The notes under the pieces: model-generated
Told to the model about the DNA's origin: nothing
Seen by the model: the letters and a program-made list of their open reading frames with translations, nothing else
The model's database searches: none
Program-made: the position numbers and the translations under genes
Shown: positions 57,270-63,303 of the stretch, in pieces
How the letters are laid out: each line of letters begins with the position of its first letter
Numbering within the stretch: position 1 is the first letter of the stretch
NCBI GenBank assembly: GCA_038212275.1
Contig: JBBQUR010000018.1
Location: 40,987 to 104,986, forward strand
Source: Planctomycetota bacterium
GTDB taxonomy: Bacteria > Planctomycetota > B15-G4
DNA length: 64,000 bases
Reading direction: 5' to 3'

Positions 57270-58817
57270 TCAGTGGCCGGGGCCCTCTCCCGTGCTGCCT
57301 GGTGACACGTAGAACGAGAGCCCGCGGATGTTCTCGTCCACGCTCAGGCCGTGCTGCAGCGGCGGAAAGGCGCGCTGGCGGCAGTCCATGCGCTCGCAGA
57401 GACGGCAGGTCACGCCGATGGGCACGGCGGCATCCAGGTTGGCCAGCTGCAGGCCGTCGGCGTAGACGAGCTCGCGCGCGTACCGGACGTCGCAGCCGAG
57501 GCCGATGGCCAGGCGGCTCTGAGGCACCCGGAAACCGCCGCCTTCCTTGCGCACCGTGCGGGCCATGCAGAAGTAGGCCGTGCCATCGGGCATCTGGGAG
57601 AGCTGCGTGCGGATGAAGCCGGGAGAGAGGAAGGCCGTGTGCACGTTCCAGCGCGGGCAGCTGCCGCTGTAGCGGGCGAAGCGGATGCCGCTGGCGGAGA
57701 AGCGCTTGCTGATGTTGCCGGCGATGTCCACGCGGATCATGTGAAAGGGGACGCCGGAGGCGCCGGGACGCTGCAGCGTGGTGAGCCGGTGGCAGATCTG
57801 CTCGAAGCTGGTGCGGAAGCGGTGGCCCAGGAGCTCGATGTCGTAGCGCACGGAGCGCGCGGCCGAGAGGAAGGCGTCGTAGGGCATGAGCACCGCGCCG
57901 GCGAAGTAGTTGGCCAGCGCCACGCGCGCGAGGACCTCGCTGTCCTTGCCACCCAGCCGGCCCTGCGACAGGTAGCGATCGAGCACGGGGCGGAAGCCGA
58001 GCAGCGCGATCTGGTGCGCCAGCTGGAAACTGCGGCTGCGCGGCGGCAGCACTTCGGACAGCAGCAGGCGCCGTTCGGCCGGATCGAAACGGCGGACCAT
58101 CGTCCGCGCGAGATCGCTCGGCACCACGTCGACGCGCACGCGGTGGACGCGTGCGAGGTACTCGACGAGGTGGCGGTCGATGTCGCCCGCGCCGAGGTCG
58201 GCGTCCCGCGCGAGTTGCTCGGCCGCCGCCTCGAGATCGGGGAAGTGGTTCAGGTTGTCCTGAATGAAGTCCGAGACGTCATCCTCGGGCGGCGGCGAGG
58301 CCGTGGAGCCTGCCGCCCCGTTCATGCCGGGCACCGGCATTCCTCCCGCCTGGCGGTCGTCGCGCACCGCACGCCAGGCCCGGTACAGGCCGAGGATCGC
58401 GCGCCCCATCGCGTTCGAGGCCGACGCCACTTCGGTGATGTCCGCGGGGCGCAATTCGTAGGACGCGAAGAGCGGGTCGCCGAACATCTCCGCAAGTTCG
58501 GAGCGCAGGCGCGCCTCGTCTTCGGGCGCGAAGGCGGTGAGGTCGCTGCCGAAAATCTGCGCCAGCTGCAGGAGCAGTCGTGCTGTCACCGAGCGCTGGT
58601 TGTGCTCGATGTAGTTGAGGTAGCTGGCCGAGATGCCCAGCCTCCGGGCCAGTTCCACCTGAGTCATGTCCCGGTCGCGCCGCAGGCTGCGCAGCTTGCT
58701 CCCGAGCAGCAGCTTGCGGCCGGCGCCGGAGACGGCTGCGCGACGCTTGCGCGGGGCGCCCGAGACCTTGGTGCGCGCACCGCGCGCGCCGCCTGCGGGT
58801 TGCTTGCGAGCGGCCAT
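57270..58817 (-). CDS. RamB/ScfR-family XRE transcriptional regulator
   Basis: HTH LGISASYLNYIEHNQR, FQLAHQ, ANYFAGAVLMPY, HRLTTLQRPG, GNISKR, CPRW, CRLCERMDCRQRA. Confidence 0.93.
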   Translation of the reverse strand: MAARKQPAGGARGARTKVSGAPRKRRAAVSGAGRKLLLGSKLRSLRRDRDMTQVELARRLGISASYLNYIEHNQRSVTARLLLQLAQIFGSDLTAFAPEDEARLRSELAEMFGDPLFASYELRPADITEVASASNAMGRAILGLYRAWRAVRDDRQAGGMPVPGMNGAAGSTASPPPEDDVSDFIQDNLNHFPDLEAAAEQLARDADLGAGDIDRHLVEYLARVHRVRVDVVPSDLARTMVRRFDPAERRLLLSEVLPPRSRSFQLAHQIALLGFRPVLDRYLSQGRLGGKDSEVLARVALANYFAGAVLMPYDAFLSAARSVRYDIELLGHRFRTSFEQICHRLTTLQRPGASGVPFHMIRVDIAGNISKRFSASGIRFARYSGSCPRWNVHTAFLSPGFIRTQLSQMPDGTAYFCMARTVRKEGGGFRVPQSRLAIGLGCDVRYARELVYADGLQLANLDAAVPIGVTCRLCERMDCRQRAFPPLQHGLSVDENIRGLSFYVSPGSTGEGPGH

Positions 58818-58898
58818 GTCGACTCTCCGCAGGATGGGGCCAGCGGCTGGAGCCGACGGCGCGGGACGCGTGCCCCGCGCCTCGTATCGGCGCCAGAC

Positions 58899-58945
58899 TT
58901 GACAGGCTTGACATGTTGACACGAACTGCAGGCGCATTGTTGACG
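58899..58945. promoter_or_regulatory. TTGACA direct-repeat cluster in the regulator/aceB divergent intergenic region
   Basis: TTGACA at 58899, 58908 and 58916; TTGACG at 58940. Confidence 0.65.
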
Positions 58946-59067
58946 ATATTATTGCCTGCACCAAAAGGACTTATGGCCAAAAGCACGATAGGATTGCACA
59001 CGTCGCAGGAGCCGCGGCGGGCAGCCTGAACGGATCCGCGACACGCACCTCGGTCAGCACCACGACG

Positions 59068-60708
59068 ATGACAGACGTGAATCTCTCCGCTGTTCGCGCC
59101 AGCGCTGTCGCCGGCGTTCCGGGCGTGGCCGTGCTCGGCGCCCGCAGCGCCGCCACCGCCGCCGTGCTCGATCCCGCAGCACTCGCGTTCGTGGCGGACC
59201 TGCAGCGGCGCTTCGGCGCACGGCGCCAGGCACTGCTCGCGGCGCGTGCCGCGCGCGCCGTGCGACTCGACGCCGGCGAACGCCCCGACTTCCTGGCCGA
59301 GACGGCTTCGCTGCGCGCGGCCGACTGGAAGGTCGCCCCGCTCCCCGACGACCTGACCGACCGGCGCGTCGAGATCACCGGTCCAGTGGACCGCAAGATG
59401 ATCATCAACGCGCTGAACTCCGGCGCCTCGGTCTTCATGGCAGATTTCGAGGACAGCACCTCGCCCACATGGGCCAACGTGACCGAGGGGCAGCTCAATC
59501 TGCGCGACGCCGTGCGCGGCGACATCGAATTCCTCGCGGACAACGGCAAGCACTACCGGCTCGCTCCGCGGACGGCCACGCTCATGGTGCGCCCTCGCGG
59601 CTGGCACCTGCCCGAGAAGCACGTGCTCGTGGACGGTCAGCCAGTCTCCGCCTCGTTGTTCGACTTCGGCCTGTTCTTCTTCCACAACGCGCGCGCCCTG
59701 CTCGCACGCGGCACGGGCCCGTACTTCTACCTGCCCAAGCTGGAGAGCCACCTCGAGGCCCGACTCTGGAACGACGTCTTCGTCGCGGCGCAGTCCGCCC
59801 TCGGCATCTCGCGCGGGACGATCAAGGCCACCGTGCTCATCGAGACGACGCTCGCGGCCTTCGAGATGGACGAAATCCTCTTCGAGCTGCGCGAGCACAG
59901 TGCCGGCCTGAACTGCGGCCGCTGGGATTACATCTTCAGCTTCATCAAGAAGTTCCGCGCGCGCCCCGAGTGCGTGCTGCCCGACCGCGCCAGCGTGGGC
60001 ATGACGCAGCACTTCCTGCGCAGCTACAGCCAGCTGCTCATCCGCACGTGCCATCGCCGCGGCGTGCACGCGATGGGCGGCATGGCCGCGCAGATCCCCA
60101 TCAAGGGCGACGTGGCGCGCCACGAAGCCGCGATCGCGGCGGTCCGCGCGGACAAGAAGCGCGAGGTCGCCGACGGTCACGACGGCACGTGGGTCGCACA
60201 CCCGGCCCTCGTGCCCGTGGCGCGCGAGATCTTCGACGCGTCGATGCCCGGCAGAAATCAGATCGCTACGCGCACGCGCGACGACGTCGTCGTCAGCGCG
60301 CAGGACCTCCTGACCGTTCCGCGCGGCGCGATCACGGAGGCAGGGCTGCGCCAGAACGTCAACGTGGGCGTGCAGTACCTGGCCGCGTGGCTCGACGGCT
60401 CGGGTTGCGTGCCGCTGTTCGACCTCATGGAGGATGCGGCCACCGCCGAGATTTCGCGCGCACAGGTCTGGCAGTGGATCGCGCATCGCGCGGCGCTCGC
60501 CGACGGCCGCATCGTGGACGCGACGTTGTTCCGCGCCGTGCTGCGCGAGGAGCTCGACCGCATCCGCACCTCGATCGGCGCGGCGGCCTTCGACGCCGGC
60601 CGCCAGGTCGAGGCCGCCGAACTCTTCGACCGACTCGTCACCGCACCGACGCTGCCCGACTTCCTCACGCTCACCGCCTACGACAGGATCGTGTCCGTCC
60701 CGGCCTGA
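59068..60708 (+). CDS. aceB: Malate synthase A
   Basis: [59 protein letters not shown]. Confidence 0.97.
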
Positions 60709-60785
60709 AGGCAGCGCGGCGCGTCACACATCCGGCTCTTCCACCACCACCACCCACCACGACTCTCTTCTCAGGACGAACTTCC

Positions 60786-62063
60786 ATGTCGACCACGCAT
60801 CGCAACGATCACGCCAACGGTCACGGGGGCGCGCCGCGCTGGACGGGCATCCGCCGCGACTTCTCGCCCGCCGACGTCCAGCGGCTGCGTGGCTCGATCA
60901 CCATCGAGCACACGCTGGCGCGCCTCGGCGCCGAGCGCCTCTGGAAGCTGCTGCACAGCGAGCCGTGGGTCGCCTCGCTGGGCGCACTGACCGGCAACCA
61001 GGCCATGCAGCAGGTGCGCGCGGGACTCAAGGCCATCTACCTCTCCGGATGGCAGGTGGCGGCCGATGCGAACAATGCCGGCCAGATGTATCCCGACCAG
61101 AGCCTGTACCCGGCCAGCTCCGTGCCGGACGTCGTGCGCCGGATCAACCGGACGCTGCAGCGTGCGGACGAGATCCAGCACATGGAGGGCAAGGGCGACA
61201 TCCACTGGTTCGCCCCCATCGTCGCCGACGCGGAGGCCGGCTTCGGCGGCCCGCTCAACGCCTTCGAGCTCATGAAGGCCATGATCGAAGCCGGCGCCGC
61301 GGGCGTGCACTTCGAGGACCAGCTCGCGTCCGAGAAGAAGTGCGGCCATCTCGGCGGCAAGGTGCTCGTGCCGACGCAGACCTTCGTGCGCACGCTCAAC
61401 GCCGCGCGCCTCGCCGCCGACGTGATGGACGTGCCGACGGTGCTCGTCGCGCGCACCGATGCCGACAGCGCGCAGCTGCTCACGAGCGACGTCGACCCGC
61501 GCGACCACGCCTTCCTCACGGGCGAGCGCACACCAGAGGGATTTTTCCGCATCACGGGCGGACTCGACTGCGCCATCGCGCGTGCGAAGGCCTACGCCCC
61601 GTATGCGGACCTGCTGTGGTGCGAGACCAGTCACCCCGACATCGACGAGGCGCGCCGCTTCGCCGAGGGCGTTCACGAGGACTTCCCGGGCAAGCTGCTC
61701 GCCTACAACTGCTCGCCGTCCTTCAACTGGAAGGCCAAGCTCGACGGCGCGACGATCGCTTCGTTCCAGCGCGAACTCGCGGCCATGGGCTACAAGTACC
61801 AGTTCGTGACACTGGCCGGCTTCCACAGCCTGAATCACGGCATGTACGAGCTGGCGCGGGGCTACAAGGACCGCGGCATGGCGGCCTACTCCGAGCTGCA
61901 GCAGGCCGAGTTCGCCAGCGAGGCCAATGGTTATTCCGCGACGCGGCACCAGCGCGAGGTCGGCACCGGCTACTTCGACGAGGTCGCGAAGGCGATTTCG
62001 GGCGGACTGGCCTCGACCACCGCGCTGTCCGGCTCCACCGAGGAGGCGCAATTCCGGCGCTGA
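60786..62063 (+). CDS. aceA: Isocitrate lyase
   Basis: [39 protein letters not shown]; start ATG 60786. Confidence 0.98.
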
Positions 62064-62080
62064 GCCACCCTGAATGATTC

Positions 62081-62272
62081 TTCGGCGCTTCCGGCTGCTT
62101 CGGAGGCGTCGAACGGTTCTCGCAGCCGGCTGCTTCGGCTGCGCCTTCCGTCTCGCGTCGCCCGGCTGCTTCGGGCGACGACTCTCCCGCCGGCTCCGTC
62201 ACGCCTCGCGCGTGCCGGAGCCGGCACTCTTTCCGGCCGGACACCTGACCGGACGCCAGACCGGACTCGCAA
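62081..62272 (+). repeat. Phased hairpin array (3x CCGGCTGCTTCGG core), a fourth hairpin and 3x CCGGAC; candidate structured RNA
   Basis: Cores at 62091, 62126 and 62162, each with a different self-complementary stem; CCGGAC at 62237, 62249 and 62261. Confidence 0.75.
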
Positions 62273-62391
62273 CGCAGGCAGCCCTCGTGGCCGGCCGCCG
62301 CCGACACCGGGCGCGGACGAGCGAGGGATGGCGTCGCCCCGCCACCATGCGCTAGCGTGACGCCTCCCTTCCCTCTGCAGAGGATGCCCCG

Positions 62392-63303
62392 ATGCGCAGC
62401 GCCGCCATGATCACCAGCCTTGTCCTTGCCCTCGTGCTGCCCGCCACCACGCTGCACGCACAGGATGCGTCCGCCGCCGGTGCCGCCCCCGCCGCCAAGG
62501 CGATGCCGGAGCTCGACCCGCTTCCGTCCCCCATGCCGGGAAAGCCGCTGCCCGAGAAGGCCGAGGTGAAGACGACCGAGTCCGGCCTGCGTTACGTGGA
62601 ACTCGCCGCGGGCGCCGCGGCCACGGCCGACAAGCATCCCGCGAAGCAGGACAAGGTGCGCGTGCGCTACGCCGGCTATCTCGAGAACGGCACGCTGTTC
62701 GACAAGACCGCTGAAGACCGCGATGCGACCTTCGGCGTGTCCCAGGTGATCAAGGGCTGGACCGAAGGCCTGCAGCTCATGTCGCCGGGAAGCAGCTTCA
62801 AGTTCATCATCCCGTGGAAGCTCGCCTACGGCGCCGGCGGCCGCCCGCCGAAAATCCCGGCCAAGGCCAACCTCATCTTCGACGTGGAACTGCTCGACAT
62901 AGAAGCCCTCCCGGCGCCGCCCGAGATGCCCGCCTTCGTGCTCCCGCCCGACAGCGAGCTCACCACGACGCCCAGCGGCCTCAAGTACAAGGTGCTGCGC
63001 GCCGCAGAAGGCCCCAAGCCCCTCATCACCGACGCCGTCACCGTGCACTACGCCGGCTGGCTCACTGACGGCAAGCCCTTCGACAACAGCTACGAGCGCG
63101 GCGAGCCCGCGAGTTTCCCGCTGAACGGCGTCATCAAGGGCTGGGGCGAAGGCCTGCAGCTCATGCCCGTCGGCAGCAGCTTCCTCTTCGTGATTCCCTC
63201 GGACCTCGCCTACGGCGATGCCGGTTATTCCGGCGTCATTCCCCCGAAGGCGCCGCTGGTGTTCGTGGTGGAGTTGCTCAAGATCGGGGGCGCGGGGCGC
63301 TGA
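62392..63303 (+). CDS. Exported FKBP-type peptidyl-prolyl isomerase with two tandem FKBP domains
   Basis: Signal peptide; two copies of SGLxY...VxYAG...VIKGWxEGLQLM...IPxxLAYG...FxVELL. Confidence 0.95.
   Translation: MRSAAMITSLVLALVLPATTLHAQDASAAGAAPAAKAMPELDPLPSPMPGKPLPEKAEVKTTESGLRYVELAAGAAATADKHPAKQDKVRVRYAGYLENGTLFDKTAEDRDATFGVSQVIKGWTEGLQLMSPGSSFKFIIPWKLAYGAGGRPPKIPAKANLIFDVELLDIEALPAPPEMPAFVLPPDSELTTTPSGLKYKVLRAAEGPKPLITDAVTVHYAGWLTDGKPFDNSYERGEPASFPLNGVIKGWGEGLQLMPVGSSFLFVIPSDLAYGDAGYSGVIPPKAPLVFVVELLKIGGAGR

What the first reader, a model, noticed from the sequence alone, without database searches (positions are those of the whole stretch)
62081..62225. Phased three-hairpin array with identical loops but different stems behind aceA: candidate protein-titrating RNA
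Seen: the 13-mer CCG-GCTGCTT-CGG occurs at 62091, 62126 and 62162 (spacing 35 and 36 nt). Each copy caps a hairpin whose stem sequence differs but still pairs: TTCGGCGCTT/AGGCGTCGAA, CGCAG/CTGCG and CGTCGC/GCGACG. Two G-T oppositions in the first stem pair only as plus-strand RNA, i.e. the aceBA sense. A fourth hairpin (GCCGGCTCCG/CGGAGCCGGC) follows. Known: conserved loops on variable stems is the design of CsrB/RsmY-type sponge RNAs, but those use GGA loops. Inference: a 3'-UTR-derived sRNA or multivalent binding platform for an unknown RNA-binding protein linked to glyoxylate-shunt expression. I do not recognise the family.
Basis: partly seen in the sequence, partly recalled or inferred. 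Interest (0 to 1): 0.75.

Follow-up and report, generated by a model that had tools for sequence, protein, structure and literature searches.

The report
Conserved-loop hairpin array behind aceA
Right after the isocitrate lyase gene sit three RNA-type hairpins with different stems but an identical loop, and the same design follows the same gene in two other uncultured bacteria, which points to an undescribed control element of the glyoxylate shunt whose binding partner is unknown.

Summary
CCGGCTGCTTCGG occurs three times (62091, 62126, 62162, + strand). Each copy caps a hairpin with a different stem, starting 18 nt after the aceA stop, and a fourth, terminator-like hairpin follows.

These are the only three exact copies in the 4.65 Mb assembly, and no other locus there scores with a hairpin model, so this is not a REP family. 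Rfam has no match.

Two other sequences carry the same design directly after aceA:
- a metagenome contig (L219, aceA 93% identical) with five hairpins;
- a MAG of another class of the same phylum (L109/G041) with five hairpins.

All 13 hairpins keep the cap G-G[CUGCU]U-C (one has CCGCU), while 8 of 10 stem pairs show changes on both sides. Between the window and L219 the caps are 39/39 identical; the rest of the 3' region is 42/108 identical.

The array was not found in the other 41 genomes of the window's class, nor in G041's family-mates.

Best reading (about 0.45): a structured aceBA 3'-UTR element whose loops are read by a trans-acting factor. The sponge idea, the strand and transcription remain untested. 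It looks like a candidate new RNA motif with three known loci and no expression data.

The parts
57270..58964 (-). ScfR/RamB-type transcription regulator, divergent from aceB (context)
   Evidence: Pfam ScfRs 4.2e-68, Peptidase_M78 1.6e-19, HTH_3 4.7e-12
59068..60708 (+). aceB, malate synthase (context)
   Evidence: Pfam MS_TIM-barrel 1.5e-114, MS_C, MS_N
60786..62063 (+). aceA, isocitrate lyase, 425 aa, stop TGA at 62061-62063
   Evidence: Only in-frame start after aceB; Pfam ICL 5.7e-103
62081..62113 (+). Hairpin 1: 13-14 pairs, cap CCGG-CUGCU-UCGG
   Evidence: -21.9 kcal/mol; model R1 36.9 bits
62121..62143 (+). Hairpin 2: 9 pairs, same cap, different stem
   Evidence: -15.6 kcal/mol; R1 35.4 bits
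62156..62180 (+). Hairpin 3: 10 pairs, same cap, different stem
   Evidence: -19.1 kcal/mol; R1 42.4 bits
62189..62234 (+). Hairpin 4 (62189-62225, other loop) plus ACTCTTTCC tail: probable end of the aceBA transcript
   Evidence: Folds. The outer 10-bp stem and the CTCTTTCC tail are kept in L219. It does not meet the U-tract rule of the terminator scan.
62392..63303 (+). FKBP-type peptidyl-prolyl isomerase gene downstream (context; not kept in L109)
   Evidence: Pfam FKBP_C 3.6e-55. An FKBP-sized ORF also follows the array in L219. In L109 the next gene is convergent.

Best explanation
The array is a selected, structured RNA element in the 3' untranslated end of the aceB-aceA (glyoxylate shunt) transcript. 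It consists of three to five hairpins, mostly 35-36 nt apart. Their stems are free to change as long as they pair. The cap G-G[CUGCU]U-C is held constant because a trans-acting factor reads it.

The factor is most likely a protein and possibly a multimer, given the repeated phased sites. Its binding would set the fate of the aceBA mRNA: protection from, or exposure to, decay from the 3' end, or its translation.

Shown: the hairpins, their uniqueness in two genomes, their recurrence behind aceA, covariation in the stems and invariance of the cap.

Inferred: that the region is transcribed with aceA, that the + strand is the active one, that a factor binds, and what the binding does.
For: 1. Uniqueness.
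- There are only 3 exact caps in G000.
- The hairpin model R1 gives 35-42 bits for these three; the next best hit in the genome is 22.6 bits, E 0.64.
- In G041 the paired-cap pattern matches only at the aceA locus.

2. Recurrence behind aceA, 3 of 3 arrays in the aceA orientation.
- L219 has aceA (93.4% aa identical), then five hairpins, the same terminator-like hairpin, and an FKBP-sized ORF.
- L109/G041 has five hairpins between aceA and a convergent ORF that reads like a glycine dehydrogenase subunit. That name is my reading of the translation; no family search was run. The element therefore goes with aceA, not with the downstream gene.

3. Covariation over the 13 hairpins.
- 87.7% of cells are paired, against 63.3% in shuffles (0 of 500 shuffles reach it) and 37-55% with slid partners.
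- 8 of 10 pairs have changes on both sides.
- The two cap pairs are invariant (G-C 13/13, G.U 13/13).
- Loop CUGCU occurs in 12 of 13 hairpins and CCGCU in 1.

4. Window versus L219: cap columns are 39/39 identical, against 42/108 for the other 3'-region columns (30 of them gapped). The stems of orthologous hairpins 1 and 2 are replaced, yet they still pair.

5. Not coding: cap offsets of 35, 53, 41 and 77 break any reading frame.

6. Precedent that aceA is controlled through its 3'UTR: C. glutamicum aceA, RNase E/G. I read passages of the review PMC5502269; I did not read the primary paper.
Against: - There is no evidence of transcription. The only run holding the stretch is a DNA run that may be the source sample, and the RNA-library contigs laid cover conserved aceA coding sequence of other organisms.
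- No partner was identified.
- There are only three loci, and two are close relatives. Hairpins within one array are paralogues, so the covariation counts are not independent events.
- The distribution is patchy. The array was not found in the other 41 genomes of the class, in G035, whose aceA is 90.6% identical, or in G044/G045, family-mates of G041.
- The aceA tree does not group the array-bearing genes (3 changes needed).
- Stem G.U versus A.C counts (3 versus 5) do not tell the strand.
- The L219 array as a whole folds no better than shuffles (z -0.99, 31 of 200).
Confidence: 0.45

Rival explanations
1. Passive 3'-end hairpins. The array only blocks 3'-to-5' exonucleases or helps termination of aceBA, as REP hairpins do at operon ends, and no specific factor reads the loop.
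For: The hairpins are GC-rich and stable (-12.9 to -24.9 kcal/mol). They sit at the end of a gene and are followed by a terminator-like hairpin. In another family of the order, aceA is followed by a plain 35-nt tandem repeat of hairpins with a different cap (L021). This suggests that hairpin arrays arise easily at this site.
Against: A passive barrier needs no fixed loop, yet the 9-nt cap is kept in 12 of 13 hairpins (13 of 13 at 8 positions) across two classes, while the stems and linkers turn over. None of hairpins 1-3 has a U tract.
Confidence: 0.2
2. Sponge or 3'-UTR-derived sRNA. The array, on the mRNA or cut off it, titrates a global RNA-binding regulator, so that high aceBA expression feeds back on other genes.
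For: It offers several identical sites on one RNA, which is the design of CsrB/RsmY/RsmZ and of CrcZ (recalled knowledge). The array sits between the stop codon and a terminator-like hairpin, so a stable 3' fragment could arise.
Against: A global regulator should have other targets with the same capped hairpin. None scores in G000 beyond the array and none appears in G041 by pattern. There is no GGA in the loops, no promoter-like site (sigma-70 consensus only) and no RNA data.
Confidence: 0.12
3. RNA-RNA pairing. The exposed loops pair with a complementary stretch of another RNA (an sRNA, the aceB leader or a stable RNA) by loop-loop or loop-linear contacts.
For: GC-rich 5-7-nt loops suit kissing contacts. 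In the window the aceB leader holds GGGCAGCC (59019), which could pair with 8 cap bases. The SRP RNA of G000 holds GGAGCAGCC, which could pair with all 9.
Against: The leader motif is absent upstream of aceB in G041. With three matches in 3.5 kb against roughly 1.4 expected (my estimate from base composition), it is not enriched. The one strong hairpin in G000 with the complementary loop AAGCAGC lies inside a long open reading frame. The SRP match was found post hoc and lies in a structured region.
Confidence: 0.1
4. DNA-level repeat without RNA function: a decayed tandem repeat, or binding or recombination sites read on DNA.
For: The dominant cap offset of 35-36 nt (7 of 10 offsets) and the intact 35-nt tandem repeat behind aceA in L021 fit an origin by tandem duplication.
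Against: Decay of a tandem repeat does not preserve pairing while replacing both arms, nor keep 39/39 cap bases while the rest is 42/108 identical. A duplex DNA site would not require complementary flanks. The pattern had no match in viral contigs.
Confidence: 0.08

Closest known systems
Iron-responsive elements in the transferrin-receptor mRNA 3'UTR (IRE/IRP), and bacterial aconitases that bind 3'UTRs (recalled knowledge, not from a call)
   Same: Several hairpins in one 3'UTR have a fixed loop and free stems. They are read by one protein and control mRNA stability of a metabolic gene. The enzyme link (aconitase, isocitrate) is close to aceA.
   Different: The loop is CUGCU closed by G.U/G-C, not CAGUGN with a bulged C. 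No binding protein is known here. The resemblance is one of design only.
CsrB/RsmY/RsmZ-type sponge RNAs
   Same: Many hairpins carry the same loop motif on one RNA.
   Different: There is no GGA in the loops. This is not a separate gene with its own promoter, because it starts 18 nt after the aceA stop. There are no Rfam hits.
REP/BIME hairpins at operon ends
   Same: GC-rich hairpins clustered after a stop codon could stabilise the upstream mRNA.
   Different: REPs occur in tens to hundreds of copies in both orientations. Here there are 3 copies at one locus on one strand in G000 and one locus in G041.
Corynebacterium glutamicum aceA 3'UTR (RNase E/G-dependent decay); passages of the review PMC5502269 read
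   Same: Same gene and same place: the 3'UTR governs aceA mRNA level.
   Different: That UTR is 63 nt with a single-stranded AU-rich cleavage region and one terminator. Here the region is about 170 nt with three to five capped hairpins and C/U-rich linkers in a 70% G+C genome.
ToxI-type antitoxin RNA repeats of type III toxin-antitoxin systems (recalled knowledge)
   Same: The repeat period is about 35-36 nt, and a terminator-like hairpin precedes the next gene.
   Different: ToxI units are near-identical throughout and precede a toxin gene. Here only the 13-nt cap repeats, and the next gene is an FKBP isomerase or a convergent gene.

Membership tests
CsrB/RsmY/RsmZ sponge RNAs | GGA (ANGGA) motifs in hairpin loops | tested here: not met
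   All loops are CUGCU (12 of 13 across the three arrays)
CsrB/RsmY/RsmZ sponge RNAs | Match to the curated covariance models | tested here: not met
   cmscan of 61500-62900 against 4227 families found no Csr/Rsm family. The best hit of any kind has E 0.64 and lies far below its gathering score.
CsrB/RsmY/RsmZ sponge RNAs | Independent sRNA gene with its own promoter | tested here: inconclusive
   No sigma-70-like site in 61900-62500, but that consensus is not validated for this phylum. Hairpin 1 starts 18 nt after the aceA stop.
REP/BIME | Many dispersed copies in both orientations | tested here: not met
   3 forward and 0 reverse exact copies. The hairpin model finds no other hit above 22.6 bits in G000.
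Iron-responsive element | CAGUGN loop with a bulged C five pairs below | tested here: not met
   The loop is CUGCU, and no conserved bulge appears in the alignment of the 13 hairpins
Iron-responsive element | Bound by aconitase/IRP | not testable with these tools
   Needs a binding assay
Intrinsic terminator | GC-rich hairpin followed by a U tract | tested here: not met
   0 terminator-like sites in 61900-62500. Hairpin 4 has only CTCTTTCC after it.
Type III toxin-antitoxin antitoxin repeats | Near-identical tandem units next to a ToxN/AbiQ-type toxin gene | tested here: not met
   Only the caps repeat. The downstream gene is FKBP_C or a convergent gene.
Coding repeat or small ORF (62074-62355, 93 aa) | Repeat offsets that keep a reading frame | tested here: not met
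   Offsets are 35 and 36 in the window, 35, 36, 41 and 77 in L109, and 35, 53, 35 and 35 in L219
Candidate new motif: aceA-3' capped hairpin array | Two or more hairpins capped G-G[CUGCU]U-C within about 300 nt after an aceA stop, in the same orientation | tested here: met
   Window 3, L219 5 (one with CCGCU), L109 5

The most novel reading that the evidence does not exclude
The array is the RNA half of a dedicated post-transcriptional switch of the glyoxylate shunt, a bacterial counterpart of the IRE/IRP-transferrin receptor system. It would bind the phased CUGCU loops multivalently and couple aceBA mRNA stability to the state of the isocitrate branch point.
Probability: 0.1. Interest if true: 0.85.

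Novelty: new variant of a known kind. Interest (0 to 1): 0.58.

Why it matters
The split of isocitrate between the TCA cycle and the glyoxylate shunt is a classic control point. It is known to be controlled by transcription (IclR, RamB/ScfR), by enzyme phosphorylation and, in one actinobacterium, by 3'UTR-dependent decay.

A gene-specific array of hairpins with a fixed loop, kept across two classes of a phylum in which RNA-based regulation is almost unstudied, would add a new kind of control to this branch point. It also gives a concrete bait, a 9-nt cap, for finding an unknown RNA-binding factor.

The practical reach is limited for now. There are three loci, all from uncultured organisms, and no expression data.

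Tried and rejected
1. REP or dispersed repeat: rejected.

2. Known RNA family: no Rfam match.

3. Paper searches.
- A search for the cap strings listed 15 of 1,068 papers. From the titles and abstract starts, the two that hold the 13-mer concern an RNA-structure probing method (PMC11614387) and G-quadruplex fluorescent aptamers (PMC6650947); the rest looked unrelated. Listing only, nothing read.
- Searches on aceA/UTR and on Planctomycetes structured RNAs gave the C. glutamicum precedent and nothing on this motif.

4. DNA homology in 40 relatives: only the aceA coding part aligns.

5. Pattern scans.
Most hits are in-frame coding repeats. Three loci passed a stem test, and only L109 is an array of this kind.
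- The metagenome scan gave 30 loci. Only L219 is of this kind; the others are plain tandem repeats in which the whole unit repeats.
- The phylum sample covered 401 genomes, 39 with a pattern match. Among the loci fetched, only G000 and G229 (the same genome as G041) pass. L171 looks like a proline-rich coding repeat. Matches without a fetched locus were judged from the printed strings only, and 7 were not listed.
- In the class of G041 (339 genomes, 23 with a match), none of the 26 fetched loci passes.
- Viral contigs: 0 matches.

6. Model R1 over the 42 genomes of the class: 11 relatives have single hits at E up to 0.05. Of the 9 loci fetched, 6 showed a capped hairpin.
- L251, L252, L254 and L259 lie inside long high-GC3 reading frames.
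- L253 reads as coding.
- L256 is intergenic and could be chance.

7. 5'UTR-3'UTR pairing through GGGCAGCC: not conserved in G041.

8. A complementary-loop hairpin at C31:1010 lies inside a long open reading frame.

9. Expression.
- One run (probably the source sample, DNA) holds 0.74 of the words; all others hold 0.07 or less.
- Four RNA-library runs laid at 85% likeness cover 61568-62043, which is aceA coding sequence of other organisms.
- X17 shows depth 1-4 over 62078-62213, but the pieces are not listed. This counts as no evidence either way.

10. More of the L219 contig could not be fetched because the record is not held.

11. The aceA tree of 23 rows (quick method, LG+G4; L011 left out as too short; the G041 row covers residues 16-282 only) does not group the array-bearing genes. 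It therefore supports neither a single origin nor transfer.

12. Earlier findings of this scan: nothing for this place or sequence.

Full report
**What is there.** The window carries, on the + strand, aceB (59068-60708; malate synthase domains) and aceA (60786-62063; ICL family 5.7e-103). Upstream and divergent from aceB lies an ScfR/RamB-type regulator (57270-58964). An FKBP-type isomerase gene starts at 62392.

Hairpin 1 begins eighteen bases after the aceA stop. The exact 13-mer CCGGCTGCTTCGG lies at 62091, 62126 and 62162. Each copy caps a hairpin with its own stem: 62081-62113, 62121-62143 and 62156-62180. A fourth hairpin with another loop (62189-62225) and the tail ACTCTTTCC follow.

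RNAfold closes the cap into a 5-nt loop CUGCU on a G.U and a G-C pair. The + strand folds at -100.2 kcal/mol (z -6.07, 0 of 200 shuffles as good) and the - strand at -95.8 kcal/mol (z -4.35, 1 of 200).

**Not a dispersed repeat and not a known family.**
- The assembly (4.65 Mb, 70% G+C, 91% complete) holds only these three exact copies, all forward. The reversed-pattern control gives five.
- Hairpins with a GCTGCTT loop and at least seven pairs number four in the genome, and three are here.
- A covariance model built from the hairpins scores these three at 35-42 bits. Nothing else in the genome scores above 22.6 bits (E 0.64).
- Rfam gives nothing near a gathering score.
- The three-copy pattern has no match in viral contigs.

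**Relatives.** The genome belongs to a small class of one order, with 42 species genomes, mostly incomplete. In 40 relatives only the aceA coding part aligns. The aceA-downstream regions of 20 of their loci that I read show single hairpins or the next gene, not this array. Pattern and model searches of the whole class found no second array.

Two arrays of the same design turned up elsewhere.

L109 is a contig of a MAG that its record calls an uncultured Planctomycetales bacterium. The genome search places it in the same phylum as the window but outside its class (G041 = G229). Five hairpins capped GGCTGCTTC follow the aceA stop there and lie before a convergent gene. That gene reads like a glycine dehydrogenase subunit; I inferred this from the translation and ran no family search. 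In that genome the pattern matches nowhere else. On another contig it has the same regulator-aceB-aceA layout.

L219 is a 68-kb metagenome contig with aceA 93.4% identical to the window's. It has aceB upstream, five hairpins (four with the identical 13-mer and one with CCGGCCGCTTCGG), the same terminator-like hairpin with the tail CTCTTTCC, and then an FKBP-sized ORF.

The other hits of the collection scans are coding repeats or plain tandem repeats in which the whole unit, not just a cap, is repeated.

**Is the structure selected?** All 13 hairpins fold on their own (-12.9 to -24.9 kcal/mol). Aligned on the cap, eight of nine cap positions are invariant and the ninth differs once. Counts for the ten pairs nearest the loop:
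- 87.7% of cells are standard pairs, against 63.3% in shuffles (0 of 500 reach the observed value) and 37-55% with slid partners.
- Eight of ten pairs have changes on both sides (30 cells).
- The two cap pairs never vary.

Between the window and L219, cap columns are 39/39 identical. The other columns from the stop codon to hairpin 3 are 42/108 identical, with 30 gapped. The stems of orthologous hairpins 1 and 2 have been replaced altogether and still pair.

Cap offsets are 35 and 36 in the window, 35, 36, 41 and 77 in L109, and 35, 53, 35 and 35 in L219. The caps therefore cannot be a conserved peptide in the 93-aa ORF that overlaps them.

Three cautions apply. Hairpins within an array are paralogues, and two of the three arrays are close kin, so the counts overstate independent events. 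The L219 array as a whole is no more stable than shuffles of its very G+C-rich sequence (z -0.99); L109 gives z -6.82. There are only three loci.

**Strand and transcription.** Outside the invariant G.U of the cap there are 3 G.U and 5 A.C oppositions.

The better argument is orientation. All three arrays face the same way as aceA, directly after its stop. In the window and L219 the genes on both sides are on that strand. No sigma-70-like promoter lies in 61900-62500, though that consensus is unvalidated for this phylum.

I could not show transcription. One run, probably the source sample, holds the stretch as DNA. The RNA-library contigs I laid cover conserved aceA coding sequence of other organisms.

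**Mechanism.** A fixed cap on freely changing stems, found only behind aceA in each genome that has it, is best explained by a factor that reads the loop on the aceBA transcript and sets its fate (confidence about 0.45). The repeated, mostly 35-36-nt phasing suggests multivalent binding.

The rivals are:
- passive stabiliser or terminator hairpins (0.2; this does not explain the fixed loop);
- a sponge or 3'-derived sRNA (0.12; no other targets with this cap were seen);
- pairing with another RNA (0.1);
- a DNA-level repeat (0.08).

For the RNA-pairing rival, a complementary octamer in the window's aceB leader is not conserved in G041. The SRP RNA of G000 carries a 9-mer that could pair with the whole cap, but that is a post hoc find.

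A 35-nt tandem repeat of hairpins with a different cap directly behind aceA in another family of the order (L021) suggests that such arrays start as tandem duplications at this site.

**Distribution.** The array is patchy. It is absent behind the aceA closest to the window's outside L219 (G035, 90.6% identical) and behind aceA of G041's family-mates G044 and G045. On an aceA tree of 23 rows the three array-bearing genes do not group (3 changes; G041's row covers residues 16-282 only). The evidence does not decide between an old element with many losses and repeated gain.

**Comparison and novelty.** In design it resembles the IRE cluster of the transferrin-receptor 3'UTR and the Csr/Rsm sponges. 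In position it resembles REP hairpins. [quoted passage not shown] It fails the defining features of each family that I could test (see Membership tests).

I rate it a new variant of a known kind: a candidate new cis-acting RNA motif specific to aceA in uncultured members of one phylum. Interest is moderate to good. The comparative signal is clean, but the family is tiny and its partner and effect are unknown.

Noticed in passing
L021 1157-1485 (aceA sense is the minus strand of the locus; genome G016, same order, family f2): The aceA stop is followed at once by a 35-nt tandem repeat of 9.5 units (92% matches). Each unit can form a CCGCCGG-UUU-CGGCGG type hairpin. It has the same period as the window's array but another cap. 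Model R1 scores only 12-16 bits.
   Followed up: partly
L182, minus strand, about 1420-1790 (genome G098, same phylum): A noncoding 38-nt tandem repeat of about nine units contains CCGGCTG(C/T)TTCGG. It sits next to what looks like a tRNA gene, and no aceA is nearby.
   Followed up: partly
L222 1230-1319 (metagenome contig end): A 34-nt tandem repeat in which each unit holds the hairpin GGCGCG-GCTGCTT-CGCGCC. The units are identical, and no aceA lies on the 1.3-kb contig.
   Followed up: no
L256, minus strand, 1501-1533 (genome G033, same order): A single hairpin with the identical 13-mer cap lies between the stop of a FixJ/NarL-type response regulator (my reading of the translation) and a convergent gene. 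It could be chance (E 0.017 in that genome).
   Followed up: partly
window 57270-58964 (-): An ScfR/RamB-type regulator (HTH_3, Peptidase_M78, ScfRs) lies divergent from aceB. The same layout occurs on contig C41 of G041, where the aceB leader is strikingly AT-rich.
   Followed up: partly
L263 1501-1596 (G000 contig C6:60239-60334): The SRP RNA of the window's genome carries GGAGCAGCC, which could pair with all nine cap bases (8 Watson-Crick pairs and 1 G.U). Found post hoc and probably chance.
   Followed up: no
L013, L014, L015: about 130-260 nt after the aceA stop (genus g24): After a long terminator-like hairpin, the three loci share a conserved stretch (GGGGTATACTCCCGCGCTTTTGA... followed by a hairpin-forming leader) ahead of the next gene. 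It may be a promoter plus structured leader.
   Followed up: no
window 60740-60760: The aceB-aceA spacer holds a CCA/CCACC run (CCACCACCACCACCCACCAC) ahead of a weak AGGA-type ribosome-binding site.
   Followed up: no
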